Assembly (NCBI GenBank): GCA_965232545.1
Contig: OZ246979.1
Coordinates: forward strand, 5,734,077 to 5,798,076
From: Candidatus Poribacteria bacterium
Lineage (GTDB): Bacteria; Poribacteria; WGA-4E; WGA-3G
Reading direction: 5' to 3'
Length of the DNA: 64,000 bases
The stretch's first letter is position 1, and every line of letters begins with the position of its first letter. The position numbers and the translations under genes were made by a program. Below are positions 3,694-63,384 of this stretch, in pieces. The notes under the pieces were generated by a model. The model was not told where the DNA came from. It saw only the letters and a program-made list of their open reading frames with translations, and made no database searches.

Positions 3694-3821
3694 ATATCTG
3701 TAGGAAAAACCACCAAATCCGGACCTCTAAAGTTTGTAGTAGTGCGGTTCATCGCACGTTCTTGCTGACCGTCGACTGCTGATTGCTGACCGCCGATAGT
3801 TAATAACTTTCCATCTTTCTC

Positions 3822-3850: not shown

Positions 3851-4034
3851 TGTAGACGTTTATTGTTACCTACATCCTTAAATGTCATAGGACCTACGCA
3901 CGCGCGCTTTTGTAGCACAAACTGTTAGTTTGTGTCGGTATCCGTATTAGTTTTTAGCCGCTCGTAGTCTAACAGATCGGATTACAGTCCAAACTGCGTA
4001 AGTCCTGTATCGGAGAAAAAAAGGAGAACTCTTC

Positions 4035-5003
4035 ATGCAAGACCTCCAGGACTTGATAACACAGCAACCCTACACGAATCTCATCACTCCCAAACGGATT
4101 CTGTTTGCGGTTCTCGGTGTGATCGTCTTAGCCTGCTTAGCGACAAGTTTTTATATGGTCGAAGCAGACGAAATCGCTGTCGTCCTGATGTTCGGTAAAT
4201 CTGTCCGACAAGCCGAACCGGGACTCCATTTCAAATTACCCCTCGGTATTGAGAGAGCCATTAGCGTGCCCGTCCGGAAAGTCTTCAAAGAGGAATTCGG
4301 TTTTCGGACGCTGAGAGCCGGGGTTCGGACGCAGTATGACACCCGCGATTATGCCGACGAGTCTTTATTACTAACCGGTGATCTAAGCATCGCCGATGTC
4401 GAGTGGGTGGTCCAGTATAAGGTTAAAGATCCGAAAAATTTTCTGTTTTCTGTCAGAAATCCAAGACAGGCTTTACGCGACCTCTCGGAATCCGTGATGA
4501 GCCGGATCATTGGCGACAGGACTGTCACTGAAGTGCTAACCGTCGGGCGTATTGAGATCGCCGCGGAGGTTGAAAAACATCTGCAAGAATTACTGGATCT
4601 CTACCAGACCGGATTAGATGTCGCAACGGTAACCTTGCAGGATGTGAATCCACCAGAAGCCGTGAAGTCCGCCTTTAACGCCGTCAATGAGGCGAAGCAG
4701 GAGAAAGAACGGTTAATCAACAATGCATGGCGCGATTACAACCAATCTGTCCCGAAAGCCAAAGGTGTGGCGATACAGCGGATTTCGGAAGCACAGGGTT
4801 ACGCGCTGAAACGCGTTAACGAGGCGCAAGGCGATGCAGATCGGTTCAAATCGATTCGCACGGAATATCAAAAAGCGAAAGAGGTTACCCGGCGCCGACT
4901 CTATCTCGAAGCGATGCGAGAGGTGTTACCGCAGGTGAAAGAGATTTATATCATTGACGGTAACGCCACCGCACCTATCCCACTTTTGCAACTCAAGGAA
5001 TAA
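4035..5003 (+). CDS. hflK: FtsH protease modulator HflK (SPFH/band-7)
   Basis: N-terminal transmembrane segment plus an SPFH domain, immediately followed by hflC. Confidence 0.85.
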   Translation: MQDLQDLITQQPYTNLITPKRILFAVLGVIVLACLATSFYMVEADEIAVVLMFGKSVRQAEPGLHFKLPLGIERAISVPVRKVFKEEFGFRTLRAGVRTQYDTRDYADESLLLTGDLSIADVEWVVQYKVKDPKNFLFSVRNPRQALRDLSESVMSRIIGDRTVTEVLTVGRIEIAAEVEKHLQELLDLYQTGLDVATVTLQDVNPPEAVKSAFNAVNEAKQEKERLINNAWRDYNQSVPKAKGVAIQRISEAQGYALKRVNEAQGDADRFKSIRTEYQKAKEVTRRRLYLEAMREVLPQVKEIYIIDGNATAPIPLLQLKE

Positions 5004-5017
5004 GAACCGTAAGGTAA

Positions 5018-5244
5018 GTTAGACGCGAAAACGAAGCCTGCAACAACGGCGCGGGGTTTTTGCTTGGGCGTTTCTTCAACTCGAACACAGAAAGCGTCAA
5101 ATCACACATCCCGTTACTTATCCGCAAGGTAAAATTAGGAATCGAGTTAGACGCGAAAACGAAGCCTGCAACAACGGCGCGGGCGACTCGAACACAGAAA
5201 GCGTCAAATCACACATCCCGTTACTTATCCGCAAGGTAAAATTA
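5018..5244 (+). repeat. Tandem duplicated leader module (about 100 nt x2) immediately upstream of the hflC start
   Basis: Unit 1 is 5018-5136, unit 2 is 5146-5244. Each ends in CCGCAAGGTAAAATTA. Unit 1 carries an extra 24-nt insert, GTTTTTGCTTGGGCGTTTCTTCAA. Same family as the 43113-43279 repeat. Confidence 0.8.
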
Positions 5245-5248
5245 AAAA

Positions 5249-6211: not shown

Positions 6212-6334
6212 GCCTTGCTTCTATAACATGAGTACCGTATTTGTAGCGTAAACTGTTAGTTTGCGCCTGATGGGATACAATCAAAATAAGGTTTCAATAA
6301 ATGTTTCGGTAATTCCATGTTTCCCCCAGACCCG

Positions 6335-6397
6335 GGTAGGCGAGGTTTCTAACCTCGCCGGTGCAGAGTGTACAATTAATTCTAAAGTTTACCATAG
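6335..6397 (+). repeat. REP/terminator-like hairpin element (GGCGAGGTT-tct-AACCTCGCC plus CTCTTTAGAG...ATCTACCATAG tail)
   Basis: One of eight related copies (6335, 9475, 13487, 16104, 20636, 27169, 42949, 49228); five lie just downstream of plus-strand gene ends. Confidence 0.7.
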
Positions 6398-6743
6398 TTT
6401 GTAGCACCAGTCTTACTGTAGCGCAAACTGTTAGTTTGCGGCACCGGTCTGACGTGTGGACCAGACCAACATTTCAGTTGAGGTTTTCGGTTTAGCAAAA
6501 CTGTTCTCACTGTAGCGCAAACTGTTAGTTTGTAGCACCAGTCTTACTGTAGCGCAAACTGTTAGTTTGCGGCACCGGTTGGCACAAAAATTCGATATAA
6601 GCATACCAAAATCTGACGTGTGGACCAGACCAACATTTCAGTTGAGGTTTTCGGTTTAGCAAAACTGTTCTCACTGTAGCGCAAACTGTTAGTTTGTAGC
6701 ACCAGTCTCACTGTAGCGCAAACTGTTAGTTTGCGGCACGCGG
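6398..6743 (+). repeat. TGTAGC-box array; a 131-bp unit tandemly duplicated with a 164-bp period
   Basis: CTGACGTGTGGACCAGACC...TGTAGCGCAAACTGTTAGTTTGCGGCAC occurs at 6449-6579 and 6613-6743. At least eight TGTAGC boxes sit 17 to 20 nt apart. Each box contains the hairpin CAAACT-GTT-AGTTTG. Confidence 0.8.
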
Positions 6744-6753
6744 AGGTTGAAAC

Positions 6754-7284
6754 ATGAGACGAATTCGTTATTGCGTCGCTATGAGTCTCGACGGCTATAT
6801 CGCTGGACCCAACGGGGAATTCGATTGGATTGTCATGGATCCCGATATCGACTTCGCCGGAATGACCGAGCAGTTCGACACCTATCTACTCGGTAGACGG
6901 ACGTTTGAAGTCACGCGTGGGCACGAAGAGGCGGCGATGCCCGACGGAGAAACGTTCGTGATCTCGCGGACGTTACAACAGAGCGACCACGAGGATGTCA
7001 CAATCGTCGGTGAGAATTGGAAACAGGTCGTGCAGTCGCTCCGAGAGGAAGAAGGGAAAGACATCTGGTTGTTCGGTGGAGGCTCCCTATTTCGGAGTTT
7101 CGCCGAAGAGGGATTCGTTGACACGGTGGAGGTCGCTATCATCCCAATTGTGCTCGGTGGTGGTATTCCGCTCATTGAGGAACCGTCCGAGCAGATCCAA
7201 CTGACGTTAAAAGATCACACGGTGTACGGGAAAACGGGGACCGTTGGGTTGGTATACACCGTGAACAAGCCAAGCCAACCGTGA
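6754..7284 (+). CDS. Dihydrofolate reductase family protein (RibD C-terminal domain-like)
   Basis: 176 aa. Motifs CVAMSLDGYIAGPNGEFDW and LFGGGSLFRSF are typical of the RibD_C/YwjB family. Confidence 0.75.
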   Translation: MRRIRYCVAMSLDGYIAGPNGEFDWIVMDPDIDFAGMTEQFDTYLLGRRTFEVTRGHEEAAMPDGETFVISRTLQQSDHEDVTIVGENWKQVVQSLREEEGKDIWLFGGGSLFRSFAEEGFVDTVEVAIIPIVLGGGIPLIEEPSEQIQLTLKDHTVYGKTGTVGLVYTVNKPSQP

Positions 7285-7541
7285 GAAACCTCGCCTACCG
7301 TAACCTCTTTGTAGCACAACCTAAAAGTTTATGCTACAATAGATTTCCGCCGCGAATGTTTAAGTCGAACGCCTGTTAAAAAGGTTCCGTTATCTATAAA
7401 CTTGACGGATGGGTAATGAATTACCCTACTACAAACAATGGAATCTCACCAAGAGCGGAGGGCGTTTTGTTATCTGTTGTTCCTGAGATGTCTATCTATT
7501 TTCACAGCTGCGATAATACTTCAATACGAATGGTTTCACCT

Positions 7542-9468: not shown

Positions 9469-9676
9469 AACTTCCCCTGCTGGCGAGGTTTCCTAACCTC
9501 ACCTATGAAGTAAACGTAGGAAGGATCTCTGAATCCCGATTACTGATGCCTAATCCTGAAAATCCTGATTCAGACTATGAATACCTACGTTACCCGATTA
9601 AATTCCTAATCTTCATTAGGGGTGTTATGTTTATAAATAGATGGCAACTTGCGTTATTATAGGACTTGGAGGTGAT

Positions 9677-10260: not shown

Positions 10261-10336
10261 AGAGATTCATCGCTGACTGCTAATTGCTAATCGCTAACCG
10301 CTAATTGCTATTCTTCTGACCGCCGACTGCCGACCG
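10261..10336 (+). repeat. Heptamer direct-repeat array (CTRAYYG x10)
   Basis: ctgactg ctaattg ctaatcg ctaaccg ctaattg ... ctgaccg ccgactg ccgaccg ctgaccg, lying between the convergent 3' ends of yjjX and the Gfo/Idh/MocA gene. Confidence 0.7.
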
Positions 10337-10351
10337 CTGACCGCCATATAT

Positions 10352-13432: not shown

Positions 13433-13755
13433 TTTATGATGAATCCTAAAAATACATAGACATCTTAAAGAAACAACAGTCCTCCTCCGCTGGCGAGGTT
13501 TCTAACCTCGCCTCTTTAGAGTGTCTAAGTAATTCTAAAATCTACCATGTATATTTGCATTTACATAATTGTCTGTGCCACTGCCGCCTGTTATTCTGCA
13601 GCTTGGCTTTTCACATCGTATATCTTTCGCCTCAGTCGAAAAATCAATCTCTATTCCACCTAACATACTAACACAAGTTCGACATTTTCGCAAGTCGCAT
13701 GACAAGGGTAGCACGGGCATTTAATGTCTATTTATTTTTAGGATTCACCATAAAA
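13433..13755. mobile_element. MITE-like insertion with about 36-bp terminal inverted repeats in the thiC leader / glcB upstream region
   Basis: Left end TTTATGATGAATCCTAAAAATACATAGACATCTTAAA (13433-13470) matches the reverse complement of the right end at 13718-13755 at about 33 of 36 positions. The element carries a REP-like hairpin at 13487-13549. Confidence 0.55.
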
Positions 13756-17348: not shown

Positions 17349-17451
17349 TTCTGCCAACTGCCTCTTGACGGCTATTCCTCTGACCGCCGACCGCCGACCG
17401 CTGACCGCCGACCGCTGATTGCTGACTGCTGACTGCTAACCGCTGATAGCC
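17349..17451 (+). repeat. Heptamer direct-repeat array (GCYGAYY, about 14 units)
   Basis: gctgacc gccgacc gccgacc gctgacc gccgacc gctgatt gctgact gctgact gctaacc gctgata, upstream of ThuA copy 1. Confidence 0.75.
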
Positions 17452-27263: not shown

Positions 27264-27284
27264 TTGTCGGTGAGAGCCTCTTTA

Positions 27285-27433
27285 CTGATGGCTGAAAGCC
27301 GACTGCTGACCACTATTTGAGTACTTCCGAATCCCAAAGAAAGATTGTACCGTCGTCGCTACCGCTTGCGAGTGTGTTCCCATCTGGAGAGAACATCAAC
27401 ACACGAACAGCCGCTGATAACTGACTGCTATTC
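27285..27433 (+). repeat. Split heptamer array flanking a 93-bp relic of a WD40-repeat gene
   Basis: Heptamers at 27285-27321 and 27410-27433. The minus strand of 27320-27412 translates to AVRVLMFSPDGNTLASGSDDGTIFLWDSEVL with no stop. Confidence 0.55.
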
Positions 27434-29138: not shown

Positions 29139-29241
29139 TTTGAAAGACTTCTACTATTGTCTTAACCCAAGTTGTGACTTACAAAATTTTGGGTATGCAG
29201 TCCCTATTTTTAACGTAAGATGCTTTATTCTTCACAGTGCT

Positions 29242-29304
29242 TTGTAGCGTACCCTGTTCGTCTGTCCCATAATGGGAAACCCAATCTAACGGGTTATGCT
29301 ACAA
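29242..29304 (+). promoter_or_regulatory. Nested-hairpin element (13-bp outer stem TTGTAGCGTACCC/GGGTTATGCTACAA, inner CCCAT-A-ATGGG) in the DUF4351 gene leader
   Basis: Belongs to the TTGTAGCR...YGCTACAA inverted-repeat family also seen at 7309-7339 and 29807-29833. Confidence 0.4.
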
Positions 29305-29774: not shown

Positions 29775-29909
29775 TGAATCCTTTAGGACTTACGCGAGGC
29801 ACTCTTTTGTAGCATAACCTGTTAGGTTGTGCCACGAAACCATCCGCATTTCTTTCGAGCATCCCCATCTAACAATGCACGCTATGGTCAAAACTGCATA
29901 AGCCTTACG

Positions 29910-41146: not shown

Positions 41147-41815
41147 ATGTGGTATACCAATAATCAGTTCTGGACACCCCGAGCACTCTACCGATGGGGA
41201 CATCGACTTACAAATCTCTTCTGTAAAACGATGGGACACCTTGATGCGCAAGGCGTTCACCATATTCCGAGAGAGGGTGGGGTGCTCTTCGTCTCAAATC
41301 ACGTCAGTTTTCTTGACCCAGTTATCGTTGGGTCTGCTGCCAACCGTGAGATCCATTATATGGCGAGGAGTAATGCATTCGACATTCCCGGCTTAGGGAA
41401 ACTCATCTCAACCTATAATGCCTATCCCGTCAATAGAGGTGCCCCTGACTTAGGGGCGTTGCGGCGGACTATTTCGCTTTTGAAAGCTGGGAACGCTGTG
41501 CTTATCTTTCCCGAAGGCACTCGTAGCGTAGATGGCACGTTAGGTAAAGCGCGGGACGGGGCATGTTTTATCGCACATCGGGCAGGCGTGCCAACTATTC
41601 CTGTTTTCCACAGCGGCGCGGAGCGGATGTTGCCACGTAACAGTAAACGCTTGCGTCGAGCAAAATTAACTGTCGCGTTCGGTGCTCCTCTTGAACTTAC
41701 TGCCGAAGAATTCGAGACGAAACGCGAGATGTATCAACAGATGGGCAATCAGATGATGGAAGCGATCGTGGATTTACGGGATAATATGTTTAGTTCGTTG
41801 GGTTTGCCAAAATGA
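41147..41815 (+). CDS. plsC: 1-acyl-sn-glycerol-3-phosphate acyltransferase
   Basis: NHVSFLDP (HX4D) and FPEGTRS motifs. Confidence 0.8.
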   Translation: MWYTNNQFWTPRALYRWGHRLTNLFCKTMGHLDAQGVHHIPREGGVLFVSNHVSFLDPVIVGSAANREIHYMARSNAFDIPGLGKLISTYNAYPVNRGAPDLGALRRTISLLKAGNAVLIFPEGTRSVDGTLGKARDGACFIAHRAGVPTIPVFHSGAERMLPRNSKRLRRAKLTVAFGAPLELTAEEFETKREMYQQMGNQMMEAIVDLRDNMFSSLGLPK

Positions 41816-42884
41816 GTAAAACGTCACCCTCTTGAACCTGATAAGTCTTGCCCTCGGCTCTCAGCAAACCTTTACTTCGCGCGTGTGGATAGCTGCCGCA
41901 TGCTATTAAGTCCGCCCAATTAATTGTTTCCGAGCGAATGAAACCTTTTGCGAAATCGGTATGCACGCGCCCCGCAGCCTCGACAGCCGTTTGCCCCTCA
42001 CGCAGTGTCCACGCTCGCGTCTCGACTGGACCGGTTGTAAAGAACGTTAGCAGCCTTAATAACCGGTACGAAGTCTGGATGAACCGCTCTAAAGCGGATT
42101 CCTGCAATCCCATTTCCGCCATGAAAATCTCGGCATCCGTTTTATCGAGTTGTGCCAGTTCCATTTCCAACTGCGCAGCGAGTACAATGACTGCCGTTTG
42201 TGGTTCCGTTTCATATTTAGTGAAGCGTTCAAGAATGTCGTCAGCCGCGTCGAGTTGCGATTCACCGATATTGCAGACTAACAGCAACGGTTTCTGGGTC
42301 AAGAACCCGTAACCGCGTATCAACTTCTCTTCATTGGCAGATAGGTCGAGGATTCGGAGCGGTTTTTCAGCCTCAAGCGTTTTCTGACACGTCTCTAAAA
42401 GTTTGATTTCAGTCTGCTGTTCCGGGAGTTTCTGATTTTGAAATTGTTTGCGGAGTCGGGTAAGTCTACCTTCAACGATTTGTAAATCTGCCAGTGCGAA
42501 CTCAAGGGCGACACTCTCAATATCGCGTTCTGCGTCAACGCTCCCGTCAACGTGTGGAACCGCTTCGTCTTCAAAAAGCCTAACGACATGGGCAAGGGCA
42601 TCGACTGTGCGGAGTTCTGCGATCATGCCAGAATCTAATTCCGCTCGCTCCATCTCTGATTTCGTTACCCCGGCAACGTCTACGTAGTCAATTGTAGCGG
42701 GCGTTGTTTTTGTAGACTCAGATATCTTTGCAATCTGTTCCAGACGTTCGTCTGGGATGTTGGCAGTACTCAGGTTTATTTGCCCGCGGCTGGTGTAGCC
42801 CCCAACTTCTGCATTGGATTGGGCTAAGGTATTAAATACCGTTGTTTTTCCGATCTGTGGTCTGCCTACAATTCCTATTTTCAT
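41790..42884 (-). CDS. ychF: Redox-regulated ribosome-binding ATPase YchF
   Basis: MKIGIVGRPQIGKTTVFN G1 motif, a TGS-like C-terminus, 364 aa. Confidence 0.9.
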   Translation of the reverse strand: MKIGIVGRPQIGKTTVFNTLAQSNAEVGGYTSRGQINLSTANIPDERLEQIAKISESTKTTPATIDYVDVAGVTKSEMERAELDSGMIAELRTVDALAHVVRLFEDEAVPHVDGSVDAERDIESVALEFALADLQIVEGRLTRLRKQFQNQKLPEQQTEIKLLETCQKTLEAEKPLRILDLSANEEKLIRGYGFLTQKPLLLVCNIGESQLDAADDILERFTKYETEPQTAVIVLAAQLEMELAQLDKTDAEIFMAEMGLQESALERFIQTSYRLLRLLTFFTTGPVETRAWTLREGQTAVEAAGRVHTDFAKGFIRSETINWADLIACGSYPHARSKGLLRAEGKTYQVQEGDVLLILANPTN

Positions 42885-42948
42885 CTGTTTTTATCAACCT
42901 ATAGTAGCTTCCGAAAATAAGTTTACATTTTGGTAAACAGGTCCCGCC

Positions 42949-43046
42949 GTTTCGCTGGCGAGGTTTCTAACCTCGCCTCTTTGTAAGTAAGTGCGGGCTT
43001 TACTATATTTGTTTCGCTGGTAAGGTTCTAACTACCTTGATACTCC
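42949..43046 (+). repeat. REP/terminator-like hairpin element, two copies in tandem (second degenerate)
   Basis: GTTTCGCTGGCGAGGTTTCTAACCTCGCCTCTTTG ... GTTTCGCTGGTAAGGTTCTAACTACCTT. Confidence 0.6.
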
Positions 43047-43112
43047 AGAAAATCTGTTGACAAAATCTGCCTTAAGTATTAAGATTAAGTGTTAAATAAG
43101 AAGCCAAACAGT

Positions 43113-43279
43113 AGCCTGCAACAGCGGCGCAGGCGGATATGAGGAACGCGCGAGATAGACATAACGGACGTGCTTCCTCCGCAAGGTATAATTAGAAAGC
43201 CTGCAACAGCGGCGCAGGCGGATATGAGGAACGCGCGAGATAGACATAACGGACGTGCTTCCTCCGCAAGGTATAATTA
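43113..43279 (+). repeat. Tandem duplicated leader module (82 nt x2) ending in CCGCAAGGTATAATTA, immediately upstream of the 43301 gene
   Basis: Unit 1 is 43113-43194, unit 2 is 43198-43279. Contains the palindrome GCCTGC-aacagcggc-GCAGGC. TATAAT at 43272-43277, then AAAAACA, RBS GAGGAGG, and the ATG at 43301. Confidence 0.8.
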
Positions 43280-43300
43280 AAAAACAGAGGAGGATCAAAC

Positions 43301-43690
43301 ATGGCAGCTGAGAGCGGAACGAGGAAGCGGCACATCGTTAAGGTCTTGACGGTTCTCTTAATCCTCACGATATGCCTCGCCGTTTTGCAATGGTTCATCA
43401 TCAAAGAATTATTTAGTTTCGGCGCGGATATGGTGAAAGACGCGTTAATTCGACAAGCCCCTGACGGAGTGGACCGCTATGACATTGAGGCGACCTTTGA
43501 TCGGGTCAAATCCGCCGGGATGCAGTTGCCATTCAGTTTCCTTACCGGAAGAATCAGTCTCCGTAAAATCAGAGCCGTTGGTAGATATGCGATAGAAGCA
43601 AACGCTGATGAATCTTGGGACGCCGATGAGATTAACACGCTCCTGAGGATGATGGACGCTTCTGTCGGAGTTAAAGGAGGAACCGAGTAA
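43301..43690 (+). CDS. Hypothetical membrane-anchored protein
   Basis: 129 aa, single N-terminal TM segment, strong RBS. Confidence 0.5.
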   Translation: MAAESGTRKRHIVKVLTVLLILTICLAVLQWFIIKELFSFGADMVKDALIRQAPDGVDRYDIEATFDRVKSAGMQLPFSFLTGRISLRKIRAVGRYAIEANADESWDADEINTLLRMMDASVGVKGGTE

Positions 43691-43724: not shown

Positions 43725-44483
43725 ATGCGGACACAACTAACTCCCCCTTATGAGAAATTCGCCTACGCCTACGACAGGATGATGACAAACGTCAACTACA
43801 CGCGTTGGACCCATTACATTGAATCGCTTTTCGACAAATATGATTGCAAGCCACACACGGTTCTGGATTTGGCATGTGGCACCTGTGCTTTGACGATAGA
43901 ACTCGCATTGAGAGGCTATGAGATGACTGGGGTAGACCGGGCAGTTGGCATGCTGGACATTGCGAAGGAAAAAGCCGCGGCACACGATATAGACATTGAA
44001 CTCCATGACGGCGACATGCGCGAATTCCAGCTCAACCAACGGTTTGATGCCGTCCTCTGCACCTACGATAGCATTAATTATGCTTACGATGAAACCGAAT
44101 TAAGCAACGTCTTTCAGCGTGTCGCTGAGCATCTCGAACCGGACGGCTTATTTATCTTTGACGTGACAACAGAACGGAATATCGTTGAACATTTCCACAA
44201 CAAAACGTTCGCGTCAAATCATAATGATTATACCTACATCTGGAAAAACAACTACCTCCATCATTCCAAAATGTGCCGAACCGTCCTAACCTTTTTCATC
44301 CGAGAAGGCGATCTGTTTCGTCGTTATGAGGAGGTTCACCAGCAACGAATCTTTGAAGTTAGCACTGTTAATGACTCGCTTAAGAGCTCCGGCTACAAGC
44401 CATTGAGTGCTTACGACATGTACACCTTCAATCGTTGGAACCGCTATTCAGATCGGATTAATTTTACAGCACGTCTGCTCTGA
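43725..44483 (+). CDS. Class I SAM-dependent methyltransferase
   Basis: Motif I VLDLACGTC and a typical Methyltransf_25-like layout. Confidence 0.75.
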   Translation: MRTQLTPPYEKFAYAYDRMMTNVNYTRWTHYIESLFDKYDCKPHTVLDLACGTCALTIELALRGYEMTGVDRAVGMLDIAKEKAAAHDIDIELHDGDMREFQLNQRFDAVLCTYDSINYAYDETELSNVFQRVAEHLEPDGLFIFDVTTERNIVEHFHNKTFASNHNDYTYIWKNNYLHHSKMCRTVLTFFIREGDLFRRYEEVHQQRIFEVSTVNDSLKSSGYKPLSAYDMYTFNRWNRYSDRINFTARLL

Positions 44484-44516
44484 ACATGAGTGGTGTCCAA
44501 AAATGAAGAAACGTTA

Positions 44517-44600
44517 GCATGTAGGGGCAGGTCTTGTGCCTGCCCGCATATTACCGAATATGAGAAAACGCATGTAGGGGCAGGTCTCGTGCCTGCCCGC
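44517..44600. terminator. Pair of tandem GC hairpins between convergent genes (GCATGTAGGGGCAGG-TCTYGTG-CCTGCCCGC x2)
   Basis: Two 31-nt copies at 44517-44547 and 44570-44600, each with a 7-bp GC stem. They share the GTAGGGGCAGG prefix with the REP-like family. Confidence 0.5.
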
Positions 44601-44609
44601 TGTGAACGA

Positions 44610-45662
44610 TTACAACCCTTCCGCAACAAGATCGCCAACTTCCTCAGTCGTGTAGCCCATGCGTCCGGCACCCAGATCTTTGATTTTTCCGCTTGCAAGC
44701 AGATCACTGATAGATGTCTCTACTTTTGTCGCCGCTTCTGCATGCCCAAGATGGTCAAGCATCATGCCAGCCGCGCCTATCGCCGCGATGGGATTAATCT
44801 GATTTTTGCCGGTATAACGTGGGGCGGAGCCGTGAATCGGTTCAAACATAGCGACGCTTTCTGGGTTCAGGTTACCAGAAGCCGCGACCCCCATGCCTCC
44901 CTGAATCATCGCACCGAGATCAGTAATAATGTCTCCAAACATGTTACACGTCACAATGACATCGAACCACTCCGGATTTTTTACCATCCACATTGTTGTC
45001 GCATCAACAAAGGCATATTCCTTCTTAATATCGGGATAATCTTCGCCTACTTCGTCAAAGACCCGTCGCCACAGATCGTGGGCATAGGTGAGGACGTTTG
45101 CTTTGTCGCAGAGCGTCAGCGTATTTTCCTTGTTGCGCTTTTTGGTGAGCTCAAACGCATAGCGGATGCAGCGTTCTACGCCTTTATAAGTATTAATCAT
45201 TTCCTGAATCGCAACTTCATCACGGGTGCCGCGTTTCAGGAAACCACCGATGCCAGCGTATAAGCCTTCGGTATTCTCGCGAACGATGATGAAATCAATT
45301 TCTTCAGGTCCCTTGTCTTTCAGAGGGGTTGGGACACCGGGGTAGAGTTTGACAGGGCGGAGGTTGATATAGAGATCAAGTTCAAACCGGACTTTCAGCA
45401 GGATACCTTTCTCTAAAATACCGGGTTTGACATCGGGGTGCCCGATTGCACCGAGGTAGATAGCATCTAATCCTCGGAGTTCCTCTAAAACTGAATCCGG
45501 CAACACTTCGCCGGTTGCCAGATACCGGTCACCGCCGACATCGTATTCGACTGTCTCGTATTGAATTCCTGCTTGTTCAGCGGCTGCCCCGAAGACTTTC
45601 ATCGCTTCACGCGTCACTTCGGGGCCGATTCCATCGCCAGGGATAAGACCGATTTTGTACAT
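44610..45662 (-). CDS. Isocitrate/isopropylmalate dehydrogenase family protein (tartrate dehydrogenase / D-malate dehydrogenase-like)
   Basis: [21 protein letters not shown] and [11 protein letters not shown] blocks, 350 aa. Confidence 0.7.
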
Positions 45663-47057: not shown

Positions 47058-47117
47058 AAACTGCTCCTATGTTTTTAGACCAACGCACCCAGTGCAGGAT
47101 AGTCTAATATTCTGTTT

Positions 47118-47316
47118 GAGGGTTTTCGGTTAGATAATGATGGTTCGATAATCCATCCTAATACTGCTATCGTATCATTCTTCACTCTTCAAAAGTATAA
47201 CAAGCGTAAGAAAATAGTCAAGAAAAAATTAGAGGGTTTTCGGTTAGATAATGATGGTTCGGTAATCCATTCTAATGTTGGTATCGCATCATTGTTCACT
47301 CTTCAAAAGTATAACA
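47118..47316 (+). repeat. Tandem duplicated leader module (about 85 nt x2, 114-bp period) upstream of the PfkB-kinase gene
   Basis: GAGGGTTTTCGGTTAGATAATGATGGTTCG...CACTCTTCAAAAGTATAACA occurs at 47118-47202 and 47232-47316, about 85% identical. Confidence 0.75.
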
Positions 47317-47339
47317 TTAAAAAATACGGATGTGCTATA

Positions 47340-48437
47340 ATGGTTATCCACATTGCAGGGTATGTGAAGCACTGGAGAAACACCTTGATTAGCGAAGCGC
47401 GCCTGAAGACAATTCTCAATCAATTTCAAAATCAACGTATCCTCGTTGTTGGCGATTTTTACCTTGATGCCTACTGGTACATAGACAAAACCCGTTCGAC
47501 ACTATCGTTGGAAACACCGTGGCATACCAATCCCGTCGTTGCGCAGCACTATAGTCCGGGTGCCGCTGGAACTGTCACAAATAACCTGAAGGCGTTAGGC
47601 GTAGGTACGGTCTACACGTTAGGGGTTATCGGTGAAGACGGATTTGGTGGAACGTTGCTGGATTGTCTGCAGACGAACGGGTGCCTGACGGATTTTATGA
47701 TACAGGTGCCGGAATGGGTAACCCCTACGTATCTTAAACCGATGCATCGTGGATATGAGGGCGTGGAGACGGAGGGACCGCGGTTCGATATTGAGAACCA
47801 GTCAGCGATGGATGAGGCGATTGAAACTGATGTTATTGATGCCCTTCAAAATTGTATGCCGCTTGTTGACGGTATCATTGTCGGTGATCAGATGCCAATT
47901 GAGAACTTAGGTGTTGTCACCAACGGGGTGAGAGACGAACTATGCGAGTTGGGAGCGGCATTTCCTGACAAAATCTTTTTCGCTGATGCCCGCACGCGGA
48001 TTGGTAAGTATCGAAACGTTATCATTAAACCGAACCGGTTTGAGGCGAAACGCGCTGTTCAGCCAGAGTGGAATGGACAGCACGTTAGCATTGAAGAGGC
48101 AAGACAATGTGCTGTCGCACTCGCGGAACAAACCCAACGGACGGTATACGTCACCCTCGGTGAAAATGGGATTCTCATCTACCATAGAGGTGAGTTTACA
48201 CATATCCCCGGTGTTTCGATCGATGATGAGATCGATCCTGTTGGGGCGGGTGACAGTGTTTCGGCGGGGCTTGTCGCAACGCTCTGTAGCCTACACGCTT
48301 CACAAGGGGAGGCAACTGTTGAAGCGGCTTATGTCGGCAATTTGGTGGCTTCAATTACCGTTACCAAGATCGGGACCACCGGGACCGCATCGCCAACAGA
48401 AATTCTACAACGCCATCGGGACCACGTGGATCTATGA
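47340..48437 (+). CDS. PfkB-family carbohydrate kinase (RfaE kinase-domain-like)
   Basis: ILVVGDFYLDAYWY N-terminal motif and the DPVGAGDSVSAG PfkB signature. Start taken as the ATG at 47340. Confidence 0.7.
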   Translation: MVIHIAGYVKHWRNTLISEARLKTILNQFQNQRILVVGDFYLDAYWYIDKTRSTLSLETPWHTNPVVAQHYSPGAAGTVTNNLKALGVGTVYTLGVIGEDGFGGTLLDCLQTNGCLTDFMIQVPEWVTPTYLKPMHRGYEGVETEGPRFDIENQSAMDEAIETDVIDALQNCMPLVDGIIVGDQMPIENLGVVTNGVRDELCELGAAFPDKIFFADARTRIGKYRNVIIKPNRFEAKRAVQPEWNGQHVSIEEARQCAVALAEQTQRTVYVTLGENGILIYHRGEFTHIPGVSIDDEIDPVGAGDSVSAGLVATLCSLHASQGEATVEAAYVGNLVASITVTKIGTTGTASPTEILQRHRDHVDL

Positions 48438-49204: not shown

Positions 49205-49442
49205 GTGGGCACAGCAACCCGCCGTTGCACCGCTGGCGAGGTTTCCTAACCTCGTCGGTTCCAAACTCACATGAGTGTAGGCGGGCACAGCGACCCGCCG
49301 CTATCGAGATGTAGTATATTAAGTGCCGCTGTTCTGTAATAGTTCTTTCAATGCTGCTTTCTTTCTTTTCAGTCGACGTTGTTGGCGTTGGCGGATTTGT
49401 GTCCTACGTCGGACCTGTCCGCTTTTACTCCGTGGCATAATG

Positions 49443-60564: not shown

Positions 60565-63384
60565 ATGCGTATTATTACAATAGCCTTATGTTTTCTTGTA
60601 CTACTCAGTGGGTGTGGCGTGAAATCACGCTTACAACAGCGCGCGCCTGTTAAAGCGGAAATCGTTAGAAAAGCTGACTGGGAAGTAGAATTCAGGGATG
60701 TCTTCTTTTTCGACGCAAAGCACGGCTGGGTCATCGGAGAGAAAGGGACAATCCTCTACACAACAGATGGTGGCAAAAATTGGGAGGCACAGAACAGTGG
60801 TACCGAAGCGCGTCTGAATAAAATGCAGTTCATAGATAACAAACGGGGCTGGATCGTCGGCAACGATGGAATTTTATTACAGACACAAGACGGAGGCATA
60901 CACTGGCGGCAGAAGATTATAACAGACGGGAGTCTCATCAGCCTTCACTTTTTGGATGGGTTGCGAGGATGGATAACTGGAGAAGGCGGCGCACTCTACT
61001 ATACCGCAAACGGTGGAAAAACTTGGAAGTTCCGTTCCAGCGGTGTGGGGGAAGCACTTCTTGGTGTCCACTTCGTTAGTGAAAACGAAGGTTGGTTGAT
61101 CGCACAACTCGGCACCACACTGCACACGACGGATGGCGGGAAAACATGGGATAATGAAACGGTAGCCCCTGAGCATAGTTTACTCAATATACACTTTGAT
61201 CGCAACCAACAGAATGGTTGGGCAGTCGGAATTGGATCTACTGTTCTCTCAACAAGAGACGGCGGGAAAACGTGGATCCGCGGAGAACCTGACATTGAGG
61301 ACACGCACGCAATCTATGATCTCTGCTTTACAGACGCTAAAAGAGGATGGTTGGCAGCGCAAGCTGGTGAAGTGCTGCACACACAAGATGGTGGACAGAC
61401 ATGGACGGTACACAAAACAGGCACACACAGTGATCTATTAGCTGTGCATTCGCCTGACGCTAAACATGTATGGGCAGTCGGTAGCTACGGAACGATACTT
61501 CATTCCAGCAATGGTGGAGAGACGTGGATAATCGACGCGGAAAGCAGTGCGGAACCCTTAGCAGGCGTGGAGATGGCAGATGACGGACGCGGCTGGGCTG
61601 TCGGTCGTCGTGGCGCAATCTTCCGGACCGAGAACGAAGGACGCTCTTGGGAACGGCAGGAAACTGGTCTCTCTGTCGGCTTAAATAAAGTAACCGCTGT
61701 CAACCAAGAAGAGGCGTGGGCAATCGGAGATTCCGGCTATATTCTACACACTAAGGACGGAGAAACATGGGAAGTCCAAAAAGGATACGACTGGATCGGA
61801 CTACACGATGTGCAGTTCTTAAATCCTGAACGTGGCTGGGCTGTTGGGGATATGGGGGGTATATTCTACACCAACAACGGCGGCGAAAACTGGATTGAGC
61901 AGCGCGGTTATATCTTTGAACTCTTAAAAGGTCTCTGCTTCATCTCGCCGAATGAAGGATGGACGATCGGTTGGCCCGGCAAAATCCTCCACACCGTCGA
62001 TGGCGGGAAAACATGGGAACCTCAAGAGAGTGGGACATTTAACGAACTCTATTCGGTCTACTTTCTGGATGCGAACCTCGGTTGGGTCTCTGGACAATAT
62101 GGACTCATCCTTCATACCACCGATGGCGGGAAAACATGGAAATTGCAGTATACACGCACACAGGCAAATCTTAACAAAGTCTTTTTCGCCTCTCCCGCCG
62201 TAGGAATAGCGGTCGGTGACGAAGGTACCCTCCTACTTACACTGGACAGCGGGAAAACATGGACACGGGAAGACAGTGGAACGGACAAAAATCTTAGCGA
62301 CATCAGTATCACGGAGGATAAGATATTTGCTGTTGGCGAAGATGGTATCGCCGTCGCGTATACGATCCCCTCAATATCAAAATATATACCACGCAAGCGC
62401 TCCTTTGAGGAGATCGAAACCGAACTGCCGAGGATAGATGCTGGATGGAATATCTTACGCAACGACGGACCCTTCCGAATAATGGGTGTGGATTCCGGCA
62501 TAAAATCAGCGGATATCTCCTTTATCAATGCTATCGAAGGATGGGCAGTCGGTAATTCCAGTACGATGCTCCACACCTTGGACGGGGGCAACACTTGGAA
62601 GAGTATTGAATCTCCTGTGGACACGCCCCTGATTGCCGTGCATTTTGCCTCTTCAGAAATCGGTTGGATATTTACAGAAGACGGGAGTTTCTTATCCACG
62701 ACTGACAGCGGCAGGACATGGCAGGTTTTGAACGAAATCACGAAGCCCGTTATAAGTGGCTACGACCAAAACAGTCAACCCATAGAAGAAGCGTGTCAAC
62801 TTTATGCCGCACATTTTCAGGGATTCGGTGAAGGATGGGCTGCCGGTCAGCAAGGCGTTATCCTTCACAATGAGGATGGGAACACAATCTGGACACACCA
62901 AAAAAATGAAACTTCCGCATCCTATCGGGATATCCAGATGGTCGGAGAGCATTACGGGTGGGCTGTCGGATCATGGGGGAAGGTACTCTGGACAAACGAT
63001 CAAGGAAATACATGGCATCTTCAGACGACTCATACAGGATACGATCTGTATGGCGTGTCCTTCCTGAACCGCCTAAAAGGATGGACTGTCGGAAGAGATG
63101 GCATCGTCCTCCGCACGTCAGACGGAGGCTTGGCATGGTCAGCAATCGATGTCGGAATAAGTACACATCTCTATGGAGTCTCTTTCATCAACGAAATGGA
63201 AGGCTGGATTGTCGGGAAAGGTGGACTCATCCTGCATACCAAGGACCGCGGCGCAACATGGGTAATTGAAGAATCCGGCACTGACGAAGATTTGTACCAT
63301 GTTGACTACGTTGAAGGGCTTGGGATAGTTGTGCTCGGGGCACACGGCACTATTCTCAAGCGAAAATTAGGAACGCAATCTTAG
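60565..63384 (+). CDS. Lipoprotein with about 20 BNR/Ycf48-like beta-propeller repeats
   Basis: Lipobox LLSGC. Recurring T-x-D/N-G-G-K/Q-T-W motifs about every 40 aa (TTDGGKTW, HTQDGGQTW, TVDGGKTW ...). AGGAGA RBS before the ATG at 60565. Confidence 0.7.
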   Translation: MRIITIALCFLVLLSGCGVKSRLQQRAPVKAEIVRKADWEVEFRDVFFFDAKHGWVIGEKGTILYTTDGGKNWEAQNSGTEARLNKMQFIDNKRGWIVGNDGILLQTQDGGIHWRQKIITDGSLISLHFLDGLRGWITGEGGALYYTANGGKTWKFRSSGVGEALLGVHFVSENEGWLIAQLGTTLHTTDGGKTWDNETVAPEHSLLNIHFDRNQQNGWAVGIGSTVLSTRDGGKTWIRGEPDIEDTHAIYDLCFTDAKRGWLAAQAGEVLHTQDGGQTWTVHKTGTHSDLLAVHSPDAKHVWAVGSYGTILHSSNGGETWIIDAESSAEPLAGVEMADDGRGWAVGRRGAIFRTENEGRSWERQETGLSVGLNKVTAVNQEEAWAIGDSGYILHTKDGETWEVQKGYDWIGLHDVQFLNPERGWAVGDMGGIFYTNNGGENWIEQRGYIFELLKGLCFISPNEGWTIGWPGKILHTVDGGKTWEPQESGTFNELYSVYFLDANLGWVSGQYGLILHTTDGGKTWKLQYTRTQANLNKVFFASPAVGIAVGDEGTLLLTLDSGKTWTREDSGTDKNLSDISITEDKIFAVGEDGIAVAYTIPSISKYIPRKRSFEEIETELPRIDAGWNILRNDGPFRIMGVDSGIKSADISFINAIEGWAVGNSSTMLHTLDGGNTWKSIESPVDTPLIAVHFASSEIGWIFTEDGSFLSTTDSGRTWQVLNEITKPVISGYDQNSQPIEEACQLYAAHFQGFGEGWAAGQQGVILHNEDGNTIWTHQKNETSASYRDIQMVGEHYGWAVGSWGKVLWTNDQGNTWHLQTTHTGYDLYGVSFLNRLKGWTVGRDGIVLRTSDGGLAWSAIDVGISTHLYGVSFINEMEGWIVGKGGLILHTKDRGATWVIEESGTDEDLYHVDYVEGLGIVVLGAHGTILKRKLGTQS

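What the first reader, a model, noticed from the sequence alone, without database searches (positions are those of the whole stretch)
43113..43300. Second leader-module duplication, with palindrome GCCTGC-n9-GCAGGC and a consensus -10 feeding a strong RBS
Units at 43113-43194 and 43198-43279 are 100% identical over 82 nt. TATAAT at 43272-43277 is followed by AAAAACA, GAGGAGG and the ATG at 43301. The perfect identity suggests a recent duplication or gene conversion. Two spurious minus-strand ORFs in the track (43092-43298 and 43192-43404) are artefacts of this repeat.
Basis: seen in the sequence. Interest (0 to 1): 0.5.

Follow-up and report, generated by a model that had tools for sequence, protein, structure and literature searches.

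The report
Copy-variable Poribacteria start-proximal repeat
The 85-base duplication is real, and it is two copies of an apparently undescribed short repeat, present in many copies in sponge-symbiont (Poribacteria) genomes, that sits just upstream of start codons, looks like a portable promoter, and varies from one to six copies at this gene among closely related strains.

Summary

This is not a locus-specific leader. It is a member of a dispersed repeat family found only in Candidatus Poribacteria genomes: more than 116 exact-pattern hits in at least 22 assemblies.

Each unit has three parts:
- a GTAG-headed hairpin with strong covariation;
- a middle of about 44 nt;
- the tail CCGCAAGG-TAWAAT-TAAAAA.

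In 44% of copies the tail abuts a start codon, leaving 6 nt between the hexamer and the ATG. Those genes lack a Shine-Dalgarno site.

More distant orthologues of this gene have an empty site: a conserved TTGACA-17-TAnnAT promoter, a leader, GGAGG and the start codon. The array was therefore inserted into the 5' UTR. Close strains in long-read assemblies carry 1 to 6 units, so the duplication is one allele of a copy-variable array.

The hflK-hflC spacer shows the same pattern: 24 nt with a Shine-Dalgarno site when empty, 169 or 246 nt when occupied.

My best reading is a REP-like, recombination-prone cassette whose tail acts as a -10-only promoter. That promoter would be leaderless when it abuts the ATG, and here it would feed a 17-nt leader with the Shine-Dalgarno site. 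An RNA-level role is the main rival. No transcription start data exist.

The parts
43057..43085 (+). Resident sigma-70-type promoter of the 129-aa gene (TTGACA-17 nt-TAAGAT). It predates the repeat insertion.
   Evidence: scores it 10/12. The same TTGACA-17-TAGTAT/TAATAT/TAAGAT is conserved in all orthologous loci, both with and without the repeat.
43097..43113 (+). 5' flank of the first unit (family consensus tt..accAAAa..GTA). GTA plus the first G of the hairpin forms a GTAG head at 43111-43114.
   Evidence: Ungapped consensus of 127 copies. It is absent from the second unit, which starts directly at A-GCCTGC.
43113..43197 (+). Repeat unit 1 (85 nt): hairpin P1 43114-43134, middle 43135-43178 (subtype B), CCGCAAGG 43179-43186, TATAAT 43187-43192, tail TAGAA(A).
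   Evidence: Family membership.
43198..43282 (+). Repeat unit 2 (85 nt): hairpin P1 43199-43219, middle 43220-43263, CCGCAAGG 43264-43271, TATAAT 43272-43277, tail TAAAA(A).
43284..43300 (+). Remnant of the native leader, with Shine-Dalgarno GAGGAGG at 43287-43293. This is the predicted 17-nt 5' UTR if transcription starts about 7 nt after TATAAT of unit 2.
   Evidence: It is homologous to the ..ccaaccc/tGGAGGt..gaacATG leader of empty-site orthologues. It is deleted in strains L118-L126, where the last unit abuts the ATG.
43301..43690 (+). Conserved 129-aa hypothetical membrane protein, first gene of a pair with a class I methyltransferase (43725-44483).
   Evidence: 204 homologues, those carrying a source name labelled Poribacteria, and no Pfam domain. 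Synteny ychF<- | ->129aa-MTase | <-leuB is conserved.
5007..5248 (+). Second array of the same family, between hflK (stop 5001-5003) and hflC (ATG 5249). It comprises a tail remnant at 5007-5022, unit 1 (P1 5036-5056, plus a 23-nt T-run insertion at 5056-5078), and unit 2 (P1 5164-5184). TAAAAT at 5237-5242 lies exactly 6 nt before the ATG. There is no Shine-Dalgarno site.
   Evidence: Empty-site orthologues have a 24-nt spacer with AAGGAG.

Best explanation
The duplication is a two-copy allele of a tandem array built from a Poribacteria-specific dispersed intergenic repeat.

A full unit is about 95-115 nt. It has a short A-rich flank ending in GTA; a 21-nt GC-rich hairpin (GTAG head; GCCTGC-AACANCGGC-GCAGGC or compensated variants); a 43-44-nt middle of fixed length but variable sequence; and the tail CCGCAAGG-TAWAAT-TAAAAA.

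Shown: the family is abundant and confined to Poribacteria. It is oriented towards a downstream gene. It is present or absent at orthologous sites. It expands and contracts in tandem, most plausibly by slippage or unequal recombination, because junctions differ and there is no fixed target-site duplication. At this locus it lies inside the 5' UTR of the 129-aa gene, between that gene's older sigma-70 promoter and its Shine-Dalgarno site.

Inferred: the tail is a -10-only promoter. Where the tail abuts the ATG with a 6-nt gap, as at hflC and in 44% of copies, transcription would start at the A of the ATG and give a leaderless mRNA. This would explain why those genes have lost their Shine-Dalgarno site. 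In the window, unit 2's TATAAT would start transcription at about 43284 and give a 17-nt leader that retains GAGGAGG. Unit 1 would be an extra upstream promoter whose transcript begins at the hairpin of unit 2.

Also inferred: the GTAG hairpin is the REP-like part. It may serve mobility or recombination, or act as a 3'-end or terminator hairpin for the upstream gene. Copy number may tune expression.
For: Family and distribution:
- The pattern GCCTGCAACANCGGCGC-N40-70-CCGCAAGGTA gives more than 116 stretches, all labelled as Poribacteria MAGs except one labelled 'uncultured bacterium'.
- 130 exact copies were retrieved, 116 of them with a 75/76-nt core.

Orientation and phasing:
- 168/210 copies have an ORF of at least 80 aa starting within 200 nt downstream on the same strand, against 64/210 for the reversed control.
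- 92/210 have the start codon 8-12 nt after CCGCAAGGTA, and 66 have it at exactly 10 nt.

The tail matches the sigma-70 -10 conservation pattern:
- Base frequencies are T .75, A .99, W, A .92, W, T 1.00.
- The hexamer-to-ATG gap is 6 nt in 84/110 copies, 5 nt in 15 and 7 nt in 7.
- Leaderless genes of Deinococcus show the same geometry (-10 motif about 6-7 bp upstream of the ORF; PMC12340547).

Translation signals: genes without the repeat show a clear Shine-Dalgarno peak at -13..-10. Repeat-abutted genes have none.

Upstream promoters: a sigma-70-like site in the 90 nt upstream of the hairpin occurs in 5/135 copies, which equals background at 4.3%. Many copies fill the whole spacer after a co-directional gene's stop codon. 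Most copies therefore have no separate promoter nearby.

Empty versus filled sites:
- At the 129-aa gene, more distant orthologues have promoter, leader, GGAGG and start codon, with no repeat.
- At hflK-hflC, the spacer is 24 nt with AAGGAG when empty, against 169 or 246 nt with no Shine-Dalgarno site when occupied.
- The native start codon is kept in both states.

Copy-number variation: 1-6 units occur at this locus in long-read contigs, including within single samples. 34/192 sites in other loci are arrays.

Downstream genes are functionally unrelated.
Against: - No -35 element or TG extension is conserved at the right distance in any subtype. By reading the sequence, only G at -14 is present, whereas the resident promoter of this very gene has a perfect TTGACA.
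- At this locus the array lies downstream of a conserved canonical promoter, so it is probably transcribed as a 5' UTR whatever else it does.
- The hairpin shows covariation, which points to a single-stranded nucleic-acid role that the promoter model does not need.
- The fixed 43-44-nt length of the middle is unexplained.
- Genes without the repeat show no TAnnnT peak next to their start codons, so leaderless expression is not otherwise evident in these genomes.
- No transcription start or expression data were available.
- Copies were retrieved by pattern, so some of the apparent invariance is ascertainment.
Confidence: 0.5

Rival explanations
1. RNA-level element. The units would be transcribed as part of a 5' UTR or an intercistronic spacer. 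The GTAG hairpin would stabilise or define the 3' end of the upstream message, or protect a processed 5' end. The CCGCAAGG GNRA mini-hairpin plus the unstructured UAAAAUUAAAAA would serve as an SD-independent (S1-type) ribosome landing site directly in front of the AUG.
For: - At this locus a conserved sigma-70 promoter lies just upstream of the array, so the units are in the 5' UTR.
- 77/92 copies follow a co-directional gene, often within 0-30 nt of its stop codon. The hflK-hflC copy sits inside what is a tightly coupled operon in other strains.
- The hairpin shows strong covariation.
- Subtype B middles are 84% paired in a 5-bp helix, with modest covariation.
- A subset of units carries a T-run directly after the hairpin, which is terminator-like.
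Against: - The very sharp spacing to the ATG (6 nt in 76% of abutting copies) and the A-11/T-7 invariance are what a -10 box predicts, not a generic A/U-rich enhancer.
- The middle region has no consistent fold across subtypes.
- The whole-region fold is not better than shuffles (z = -1.25).
- G-U versus A-C counts give no clear strand signal (20 vs 12; about equal in the hairpin variants).
- There is no Rfam match.
Confidence: 0.3
2. Selfish or neutral REP/MITE-like repeat with no role in expression. The association with start codons would reflect where insertions are tolerated or targeted, and the tandem copies would be neutral slippage products.
For: - GTAG head plus a compensated hairpin, as in GTAG-type REPs (PMC3733652).
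- Insertion polymorphism.
- Hypervariable arrays, including scrambled or truncated units.
- The window copy leaves the native promoter and Shine-Dalgarno site intact.
Against: - In 44% of copies the native Shine-Dalgarno leader has been removed exactly up to the conserved start codon of intact, conserved genes (hflC, the 129-aa gene in L118-L126). Those genes must be expressed through the repeat.
- The orientation bias is 80% versus 30%.
- The non-palindromic tail is as conserved as the hairpin.
Confidence: 0.12
3. Gene-specific cis-regulatory leader (a riboswitch, attenuator or operator for a regulator binding the GCCTGC-N9-GCAGGC palindrome) that happens to be duplicated.
For: - A perfect palindrome lies upstream of a -10 box and a strong Shine-Dalgarno site.
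- CCUCC of the unit can pair with the GGAGG of the Shine-Dalgarno site in the minimum-energy fold.
Against: - The same unit occurs upstream of many unrelated genes in at least 22 genomes.
- It is absent from more distant orthologues of this very gene.
- Compensatory changes in the hairpin argue against a sequence-specific protein operator.
- There is no Rfam family.
Confidence: 0.03
4. Assembly artefact: the repeat was expanded or collapsed in the window's assembly.
For: Perfect tandem repeats are error-prone in short-read assemblies. One low-coverage relative shows scrambled units (L118/L120).
Against: Independent long-read contigs at 23-61x coverage carry 2-6 tandem units at the same locus. 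Arrays are common elsewhere in the family. The one-base difference between the two units is not expected from a purely artefactual copy.
Confidence: 0.03

Closest known systems
GTAG-tagged REPs / REP clusters (Di Nocera et al. 2013, PMC3733652; RAYT-associated REPs, Nunvar et al. 2010, PMC2817692)
   Same: - A conserved GTAG head next to a short GC-rich stem-loop.
- Sub-families with complementary stem substitutions.
- High copy number, extragenic location, mostly after co-directional genes.
- Clusters reiterated in tandem together with flanking DNA.
- No target-site duplication.
   Different: - The conserved unit here is 95-115 nt, not 20-40 nt.
- It has a non-palindromic tail as conserved as the hairpin.
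- It is strictly oriented and phased on the downstream start codon.
- Arrays are head-to-tail, a type that is rare for REPs.
- No RAYT gene has been linked to it (not tested genome-wide).
Correia elements (CREE/NEMIS) of Neisseria and other promoter-bearing MITEs (from my own knowledge)
   Same: - Elements of about 100-150 bp dispersed in intergenic regions.
- Insertion polymorphism between strains.
- They carry -10-like boxes that can drive the adjacent gene.
- They are often co-transcribed.
   Different: Correia elements have terminal inverted repeats and a TA duplication. This family has neither. No MITE I know of abuts start codons at a fixed 6-nt gap.
Putative mobile promoters (Matus-Garcia et al. 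2012, PMC3488235)
   Same: Families of highly similar 50-100-nt upstream sequences found in front of non-homologous genes within and between genomes.
   Different: Reported families reach at most 93 members in one genome and have no defined architecture. This family has a defined hairpin-plus-tail structure, spans at least 22 species-level genomes, and forms variable tandem arrays.
-10-only leaderless promoters of Deinococcus-Thermus and Actinobacteria (PMC12340547, PMC4007540, PMC3898074, PMC3160421)
   Same: A TANNNT box about 6-7 nt upstream of the start codon, no Shine-Dalgarno site, and no obvious -35.
   Different: In those phyla the motif is a general property of many genes. Here it is delivered by a repeat, while the other genes in the same genomes use Shine-Dalgarno sites and show no such motif.

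Membership tests
GTAG-tagged REP | Terminal GTAG (or close variant) motif adjoining the stem | tested here: met
   GTA is conserved (information >0.6 bit) immediately 5' of the hairpin in 127 copies. The first hairpin base is G in more than 90% of variants. In the window this is GTAG at 43111-43114.
GTAG-tagged REP | Short GC-rich stem-loop with sub-families showing complementary stem changes | tested here: met
   33 cells changed on both sides versus 9.8 +/- 2.3 in shuffles (0/500). Covariation score is 0.427 versus 0.241. Slid controls score 0.18 or less. Variants seen: GCCC/GGGC, GTCC/GGAC, GCAC/GTGC, GCTT/AAGC, GTTC/GAAC.
GTAG-tagged REP | Repeat unit is the 20-40-bp palindrome itself | tested here: not met
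   Conservation extends over about 95-115 nt, including a non-palindromic tail.
GTAG-tagged REP | High-copy, extragenic, mainly downstream of ORFs between unidirectional or convergent genes | tested here: inconclusive
   The family is high-copy and extragenic, and the upstream gene is co-directional in 77/92 copies. However, the units are phased on the downstream start codon rather than on the upstream stop codon.
GTAG-tagged REP | Cognate RAYT (Y1 transposase) gene flanked by the repeats | not tested
   Only a cursory look was made at inverted hairpin pairs in the held loci. The two checked (L043, L046) enclose a glycosyltransferase-like and a peptidase-like ORF. Whole genomes were not available.
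MITE (Correia-like) | Terminal inverted repeats | tested here: not met
   No inverted repeat joins the unit's ends. Read directly, the 5' end GTAGCCTGC and the 3' end ..GGTAAAATTAAAAA are unrelated.
MITE (Correia-like) | Fixed-length target-site duplication | tested here: not met
   The longest shared word between 5' and 3' flanks of 72 isolated copies matches mismatched-pair controls up to 7 nt. The excess at 8 nt and above comes from partial tandem duplications.
MITE (Correia-like) | Filled and empty orthologous sites | tested here: met
   129-aa gene locus and hflK-hflC spacer.
sigma-70 -10 promoter giving leaderless mRNA | Hexamer with near-invariant A(-11) and T(-7) | tested here: met
   A .99 and T 1.00 in 254 tails that were selected only for CCGC[AG]AGG plus A/T richness.
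sigma-70 -10 promoter giving leaderless mRNA | Hexamer ends about 6-7 nt before the start codon | tested here: met
   6 nt in 84/110 abutting copies, including hflC in the window (5237-5242, ATG 5249). For unit 2 of this finding the feature is not met: the gap is 23 nt and holds a Shine-Dalgarno site, so a short leader is predicted instead.
sigma-70 -10 promoter giving leaderless mRNA | -35 element or TGn extension compensating for its absence | tested here: not met
   Read from the alignments: the hexamer 17 +/- 1 nt upstream is ACCCAC (type A) or ACGCAC (type B). Only G at -14 is conserved.
sigma-70 -10 promoter giving leaderless mRNA | Primary transcript 5' end at the A of the start codon | not testable with these tools
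   No transcriptome data.
Curated cis-regulatory or structured RNA (Rfam) | Match to a family model at gathering score | tested here: not met
   No hit in the window or in 16 related loci. Only chance-level hits appear at E up to 10 in 42850-43350.
Curated cis-regulatory or structured RNA (Rfam) | Association with a functionally coherent gene set | tested here: not met
   Downstream genes include UxuA-like, PASTA, GHMP kinase, PhyH, ABC-3, GFO/IDH/MocA, Rieske, an ABC exporter and HflC (translations).

The most novel reading that the evidence does not exclude
A self-propagating 'plug-in' expression cassette would exist genome-wide in a candidate phylum. It would convert ordinary Shine-Dalgarno-led genes, including internal operon genes such as hflC, into leaderless genes driven by a -10-only promoter. 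Its tandem copy number would vary among co-existing symbiont strains and so act as a heritable, reversible expression dial.
Probability: 0.3. Interest if true: 0.8.

Novelty: new variant of a known kind. Interest (0 to 1): 0.6.

Why it matters
If the tail is a working promoter, Poribacteria would show large-scale rewiring of gene expression by a small repeat. Many genes, perhaps 5-10% by a rough and biased estimate, would have swapped their Shine-Dalgarno leader for a repeat-borne, leaderless start, and operons such as hflKC would have been split.

The family also offers three practical uses:
- a defined sequence for testing promoter and translation rules in an uncultivated phylum;
- a marker for strain typing, because copy number differs between co-existing strains;
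- a warning for annotation, because the arrays produce spurious ORFs and are prone to assembly error.

Even under the neutral reading, it is an apparently undescribed, abundant GTAG-hairpin repeat with an unusual phased position next to start codons.

Tried and rejected
- Exact-protein look-ups of the window's own 129-aa and HflC proteins found nothing. Orthologues had to be reached through homology searches.
- Rfam gave no family in three scans.
- Folding 43090-43310 on either strand gave energies no better than shuffles.
- RNAalifold on 98 mixed copies recovered only the 5' hairpin and the CC-GCAA-GG mini-hairpin, with no covariation, because those columns were fixed by the search pattern.
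- Single-sequence folds of the middle region are inconsistent across subtypes. A hand-built helix for subtype B is 84% paired but only weakly covarying, with no clear G-U/A-C asymmetry. I therefore do not claim a structured middle.
- The target-site duplication test was negative.
- A search for a transposase between inverted hairpin pairs found ordinary genes.
- A conserved promoter upstream of the units in general was not found; the rate equals background.
- There were no copies in viral contigs.
- Literature searches for Poribacteria repeats, RNA motifs or promoters returned nothing relevant.
- A small ORF in the window's unit (ATG at 43140) is not conserved in other copies, by reading the alignment, and was dropped.

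Full report
**Observation**

The window holds a head-to-tail duplication of an 85-nt unit at 43113-43197 and 43198-43282 (TRF score 335). The first 82 nt of the two units are identical, and the only difference is G43195 versus A43280.
- GCCTGC-N9-GCAGGC at 43114-43134 and 43199-43219;
- TATAAT at 43187-43192 and 43272-43277;
- GAGGAGG at 43287-43293;
- ATG at 43301.

Long sub-patterns of the unit occur exactly twice in the window, against zero expected. The array lies in the 416-nt spacer between ychF (41790-42884, minus strand) and a 129-aa ORF (43301-43690), which is followed by a methyltransferase gene.

**It is a family, not a local leader**

A window-wide repeat search showed that the array between hflK and hflC (5017-5244) shares the same two ends: AGCCTGCAACARCGGCGCRGGC and TCCGCAAGGTAWAATTA. 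These are separated by a middle of the same length but different sequence.

All were labelled as Candidatus Poribacteria MAGs except one labelled 'uncultured bacterium'. At least 22 assemblies appear among the first 80 loci.

In the 0.98 Mb retrieved there are 130 exact copies, 116 of them with a 75/76-nt core. A looser tail motif finds 210-254 copies. No Rfam family matches, whether in the window, in the region at permissive E-values, or in 16 related loci. Literature searches found no description.

**Anatomy**

Ungapped consensus shows conservation from about 17 nt upstream of the hairpin (tt..accAAAa..GTA) to AAATTAAAAA, and then often ATG.

*The hairpin.* The 21-nt hairpin has a GTAG head. 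When copies are collected by the tail alone, the hairpin appears in compensated versions: GCCT/AGGC, GCCC/GGGC, GTCC/GGAC, GCAC/GTGC, GCTT/AAGC and GTTC/GAAC. An inner C-G pair also switches to U-A. The formal count gives 33 double-change cells versus 9.8 +/- 2.3 in shuffles (0/500), with slid controls far lower.

*The middle.* The middle falls into three subtypes. The window's units are subtype B and the hflC units are subtype C. It has no fold common to all subtypes. A 5-bp helix in subtype B is 84% paired, with weak covariation and no clear strand signal.

*An optional insertion.* Eight of 130 copies, including hflC unit 1, carry a 21-23-nt insertion (GTTTTTGCTTGGGYGTTTCTTCA) directly after the hairpin. 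This creates a hairpin followed by a T-run.

**Position relative to genes**

- 80% of copies have an ORF of at least 80 aa starting within 200 nt downstream on the same strand, against 30% in the reverse control.
- 44% have the start codon 8-12 nt after CCGCAAGGTA, and 66 have it at exactly 10 nt.
- The upstream gene is co-directional in 77/92 cases. Its stop codon often lies within 0-30 nt of the unit, so the unit fills the whole spacer.
- Genes without the unit show a normal Shine-Dalgarno peak at -13..-10 and no TAnnnT peak. Genes abutted by the unit have no Shine-Dalgarno site.
- The downstream genes are functionally unrelated.

**The tail looks like a -10 box**

The tails were selected only for CCGC[AG]AGG plus A/T richness. 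Their base frequencies are T .75, A .99, A/T, A .92, A/T, T 1.00. The nearly invariant positions are therefore exactly A-11 and T-7.

The gap from the hexamer to the ATG is 6 nt in 84/110 copies, 5 nt in 15 and 7 nt in 7. This is the geometry reported for leaderless genes in Deinococcus, where the -10 motif lies about 6-7 bp upstream of the ORF (PMC12340547).

Against this, no -35 element or TG extension is conserved. A sigma-70-like promoter within 90 nt upstream of the hairpin is no more frequent than background (5/135 versus 4.3%). This means most copies have no separate promoter nearby.

**History of this locus**

The 129-aa protein is a conserved hypothetical protein; homologues that carry a source name are labelled Poribacteria. 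Synteny around it is conserved.

*Empty site.* Orthologues at 82-87% identity have no repeat. They show TTGACA-17-TAGTAT or TAATAT, a leader of about 40 nt, GGAGG, and the start codon.

*The same promoter in the window.* It survives as TTGACA-17-TAAGAT at 43057-43085. The array therefore sits inside the old 5' UTR, just upstream of the retained Shine-Dalgarno site.

*Variable copy number.* Strains at 91-95% identity come from long-read contigs at 23-61x coverage, plus one contig at 7x. They carry:
- one truncated unit (L117);
- two units of another subtype (L124);
- three units (L122);
- four units (L120, L121, L125, L126);
- five units (L118);
- six units (L119).

Different alleles occur within the same sample.

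*Loss of the leader.* In L118-L126 the Shine-Dalgarno leader has been deleted precisely, so that the last unit abuts the same ATG (..CCGCAAGGAATAATTAAAAT-ATG). The window, L124 and L117 keep the Shine-Dalgarno site.

**The hflK-hflC spacer tells the same story**

- Empty state: 24 nt with AAGGAG (orthologues at 83-89% identity).
- Occupied state: 169 nt with a different subtype and hairpin version (L146-L150).
- Window: 246 nt with two subtype C units.

In both occupied states the Shine-Dalgarno site is gone and the ATG lies 10 nt after CCGCAAGG+2.

**Tandem arrays are a general property**

34 of 192 sites in the other loci are arrays. Their periods are 84-90, 104-124 or 142-151 nt, plus tail-only duplications of 20-25 nt. 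One locus has seven units (L024). Junctions differ between arrays and there is no fixed target-site duplication. This points to slippage or unequal recombination rather than a site-specific insertion mechanism.

**Interpretation**

Settled points:
- The duplication is real.
- It is one allele of a copy-variable array.
- The array is built from an apparently undescribed repeat family found only in Poribacteria genomes.
- It is an insertion into a pre-existing 5' UTR.
- The minus-strand ORFs are spurious.

Most likely function (about 0.5): the tail is a portable -10-only promoter. It would be leaderless where it abuts the ATG. Here it would feed a 17-nt leader that keeps the native Shine-Dalgarno site. 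The GTAG hairpin would be the REP-like part. The evidence is the A-11/T-7 pattern, the 6-nt spacing, the loss of Shine-Dalgarno sites from intact conserved genes, and the lack of other promoters nearby.

Main rival (about 0.3): an RNA-level role as a 5' UTR or intercistronic element, with a stabilising hairpin and an A/U-rich, SD-independent initiation region. This is favoured by the conserved upstream promoter at this locus, the predominance of co-directional contexts, and the hairpin covariation.

A purely selfish repeat (about 0.12) is disfavoured, because many conserved genes now depend on the unit for their only upstream signals. A gene-specific riboswitch or operator, and an assembly artefact, are both unlikely.

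**Caveats**

- Copies were retrieved by sequence patterns, so some invariance is by construction. I used looser patterns where that mattered.
- ORF starts were called naively.
- Copy numbers per genome are extrapolations.
- There are no transcript data.

Noticed in passing
window 42953-42982 (degenerate copy 43011-43027); also 6335-6364, 9472-9500, 13488-13517, 49225-49253: A second dispersed hairpin repeat, CGCTGGCGAGGTTTCTAACCTCGCC (9-bp stem, terminator-like with TCTTT). Two copies lie in the same ychF/129-aa spacer, upstream of the resident promoter.
   Followed up: no
window 3909-3934, 6240-6265, 6415-6735 (five copies), 7308-7333, 29241-29266, 29806-29831: A third repeat family, TTTGTAGCGCAAACTGTTAGTTTGCG. 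It includes a 128-nt unit duplicated at 164-nt spacing (6448-6575 / 6612-6739) immediately upstream of the ORF at 6754-7284. This is another tandem 'upstream module' of a different family.
   Followed up: no
window 47115-47202 and 47229-47316: An 88-nt unit repeated at 114-nt spacing (91% identity), overlapping the start of the ORF at 47292-48437.
   Followed up: no
window 5056-5078; L007, L099, L036, L037, L011, L016, L020, L095: A recurrent 21-23-nt insertion, GTTTTTGCTTGGGYGTTTCTTCA, lies directly after the family hairpin and turns it into a hairpin plus T-run. In some loci the insertion itself carries nested insertions or internal tandem duplications. The two hflC units differ only by this module.
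   Followed up: partly
window 5007-5022; L146-L150: A tail-only remnant (CCGTAAGGTAAGTTAG / CCGTAAGGTAAAATTAG) sits directly after the hflK stop codon in both occupied versions of the spacer, although the full units that follow are of different subtypes. This suggests an older occupation followed by replacement.
   Followed up: partly
L018, L098, L100, L103 (gene starting MSYQREFE..); L024, L088, L115 (gene starting MKLLEVNNLR): The same orthologous gene carries different subtypes of the repeat in different genomes, at the same distance from the ATG. This implies turnover or gene conversion between copies.
   Followed up: no
window 17380-17446, 10307-10345, 3756-3794, 27276-27314: Short heptad arrays (GACCGCC / CTGACCG) recur in several spacers. 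Similar CTGAC-rich tracts appear in the ychF spacer of empty-site orthologues (L133-L142).
   Followed up: no
window 60718-63281: Six to seven in-frame repeats encode ..DGGKTW.. motifs (BNR/Ycf48-like by eye) within a large ORF region.
   Followed up: no
window 44490-45263 (+): A 257-aa ORF lies entirely antisense to the isopropylmalate dehydrogenase-like gene (44610-45662, minus strand). It is probably spurious.
   Followed up: no
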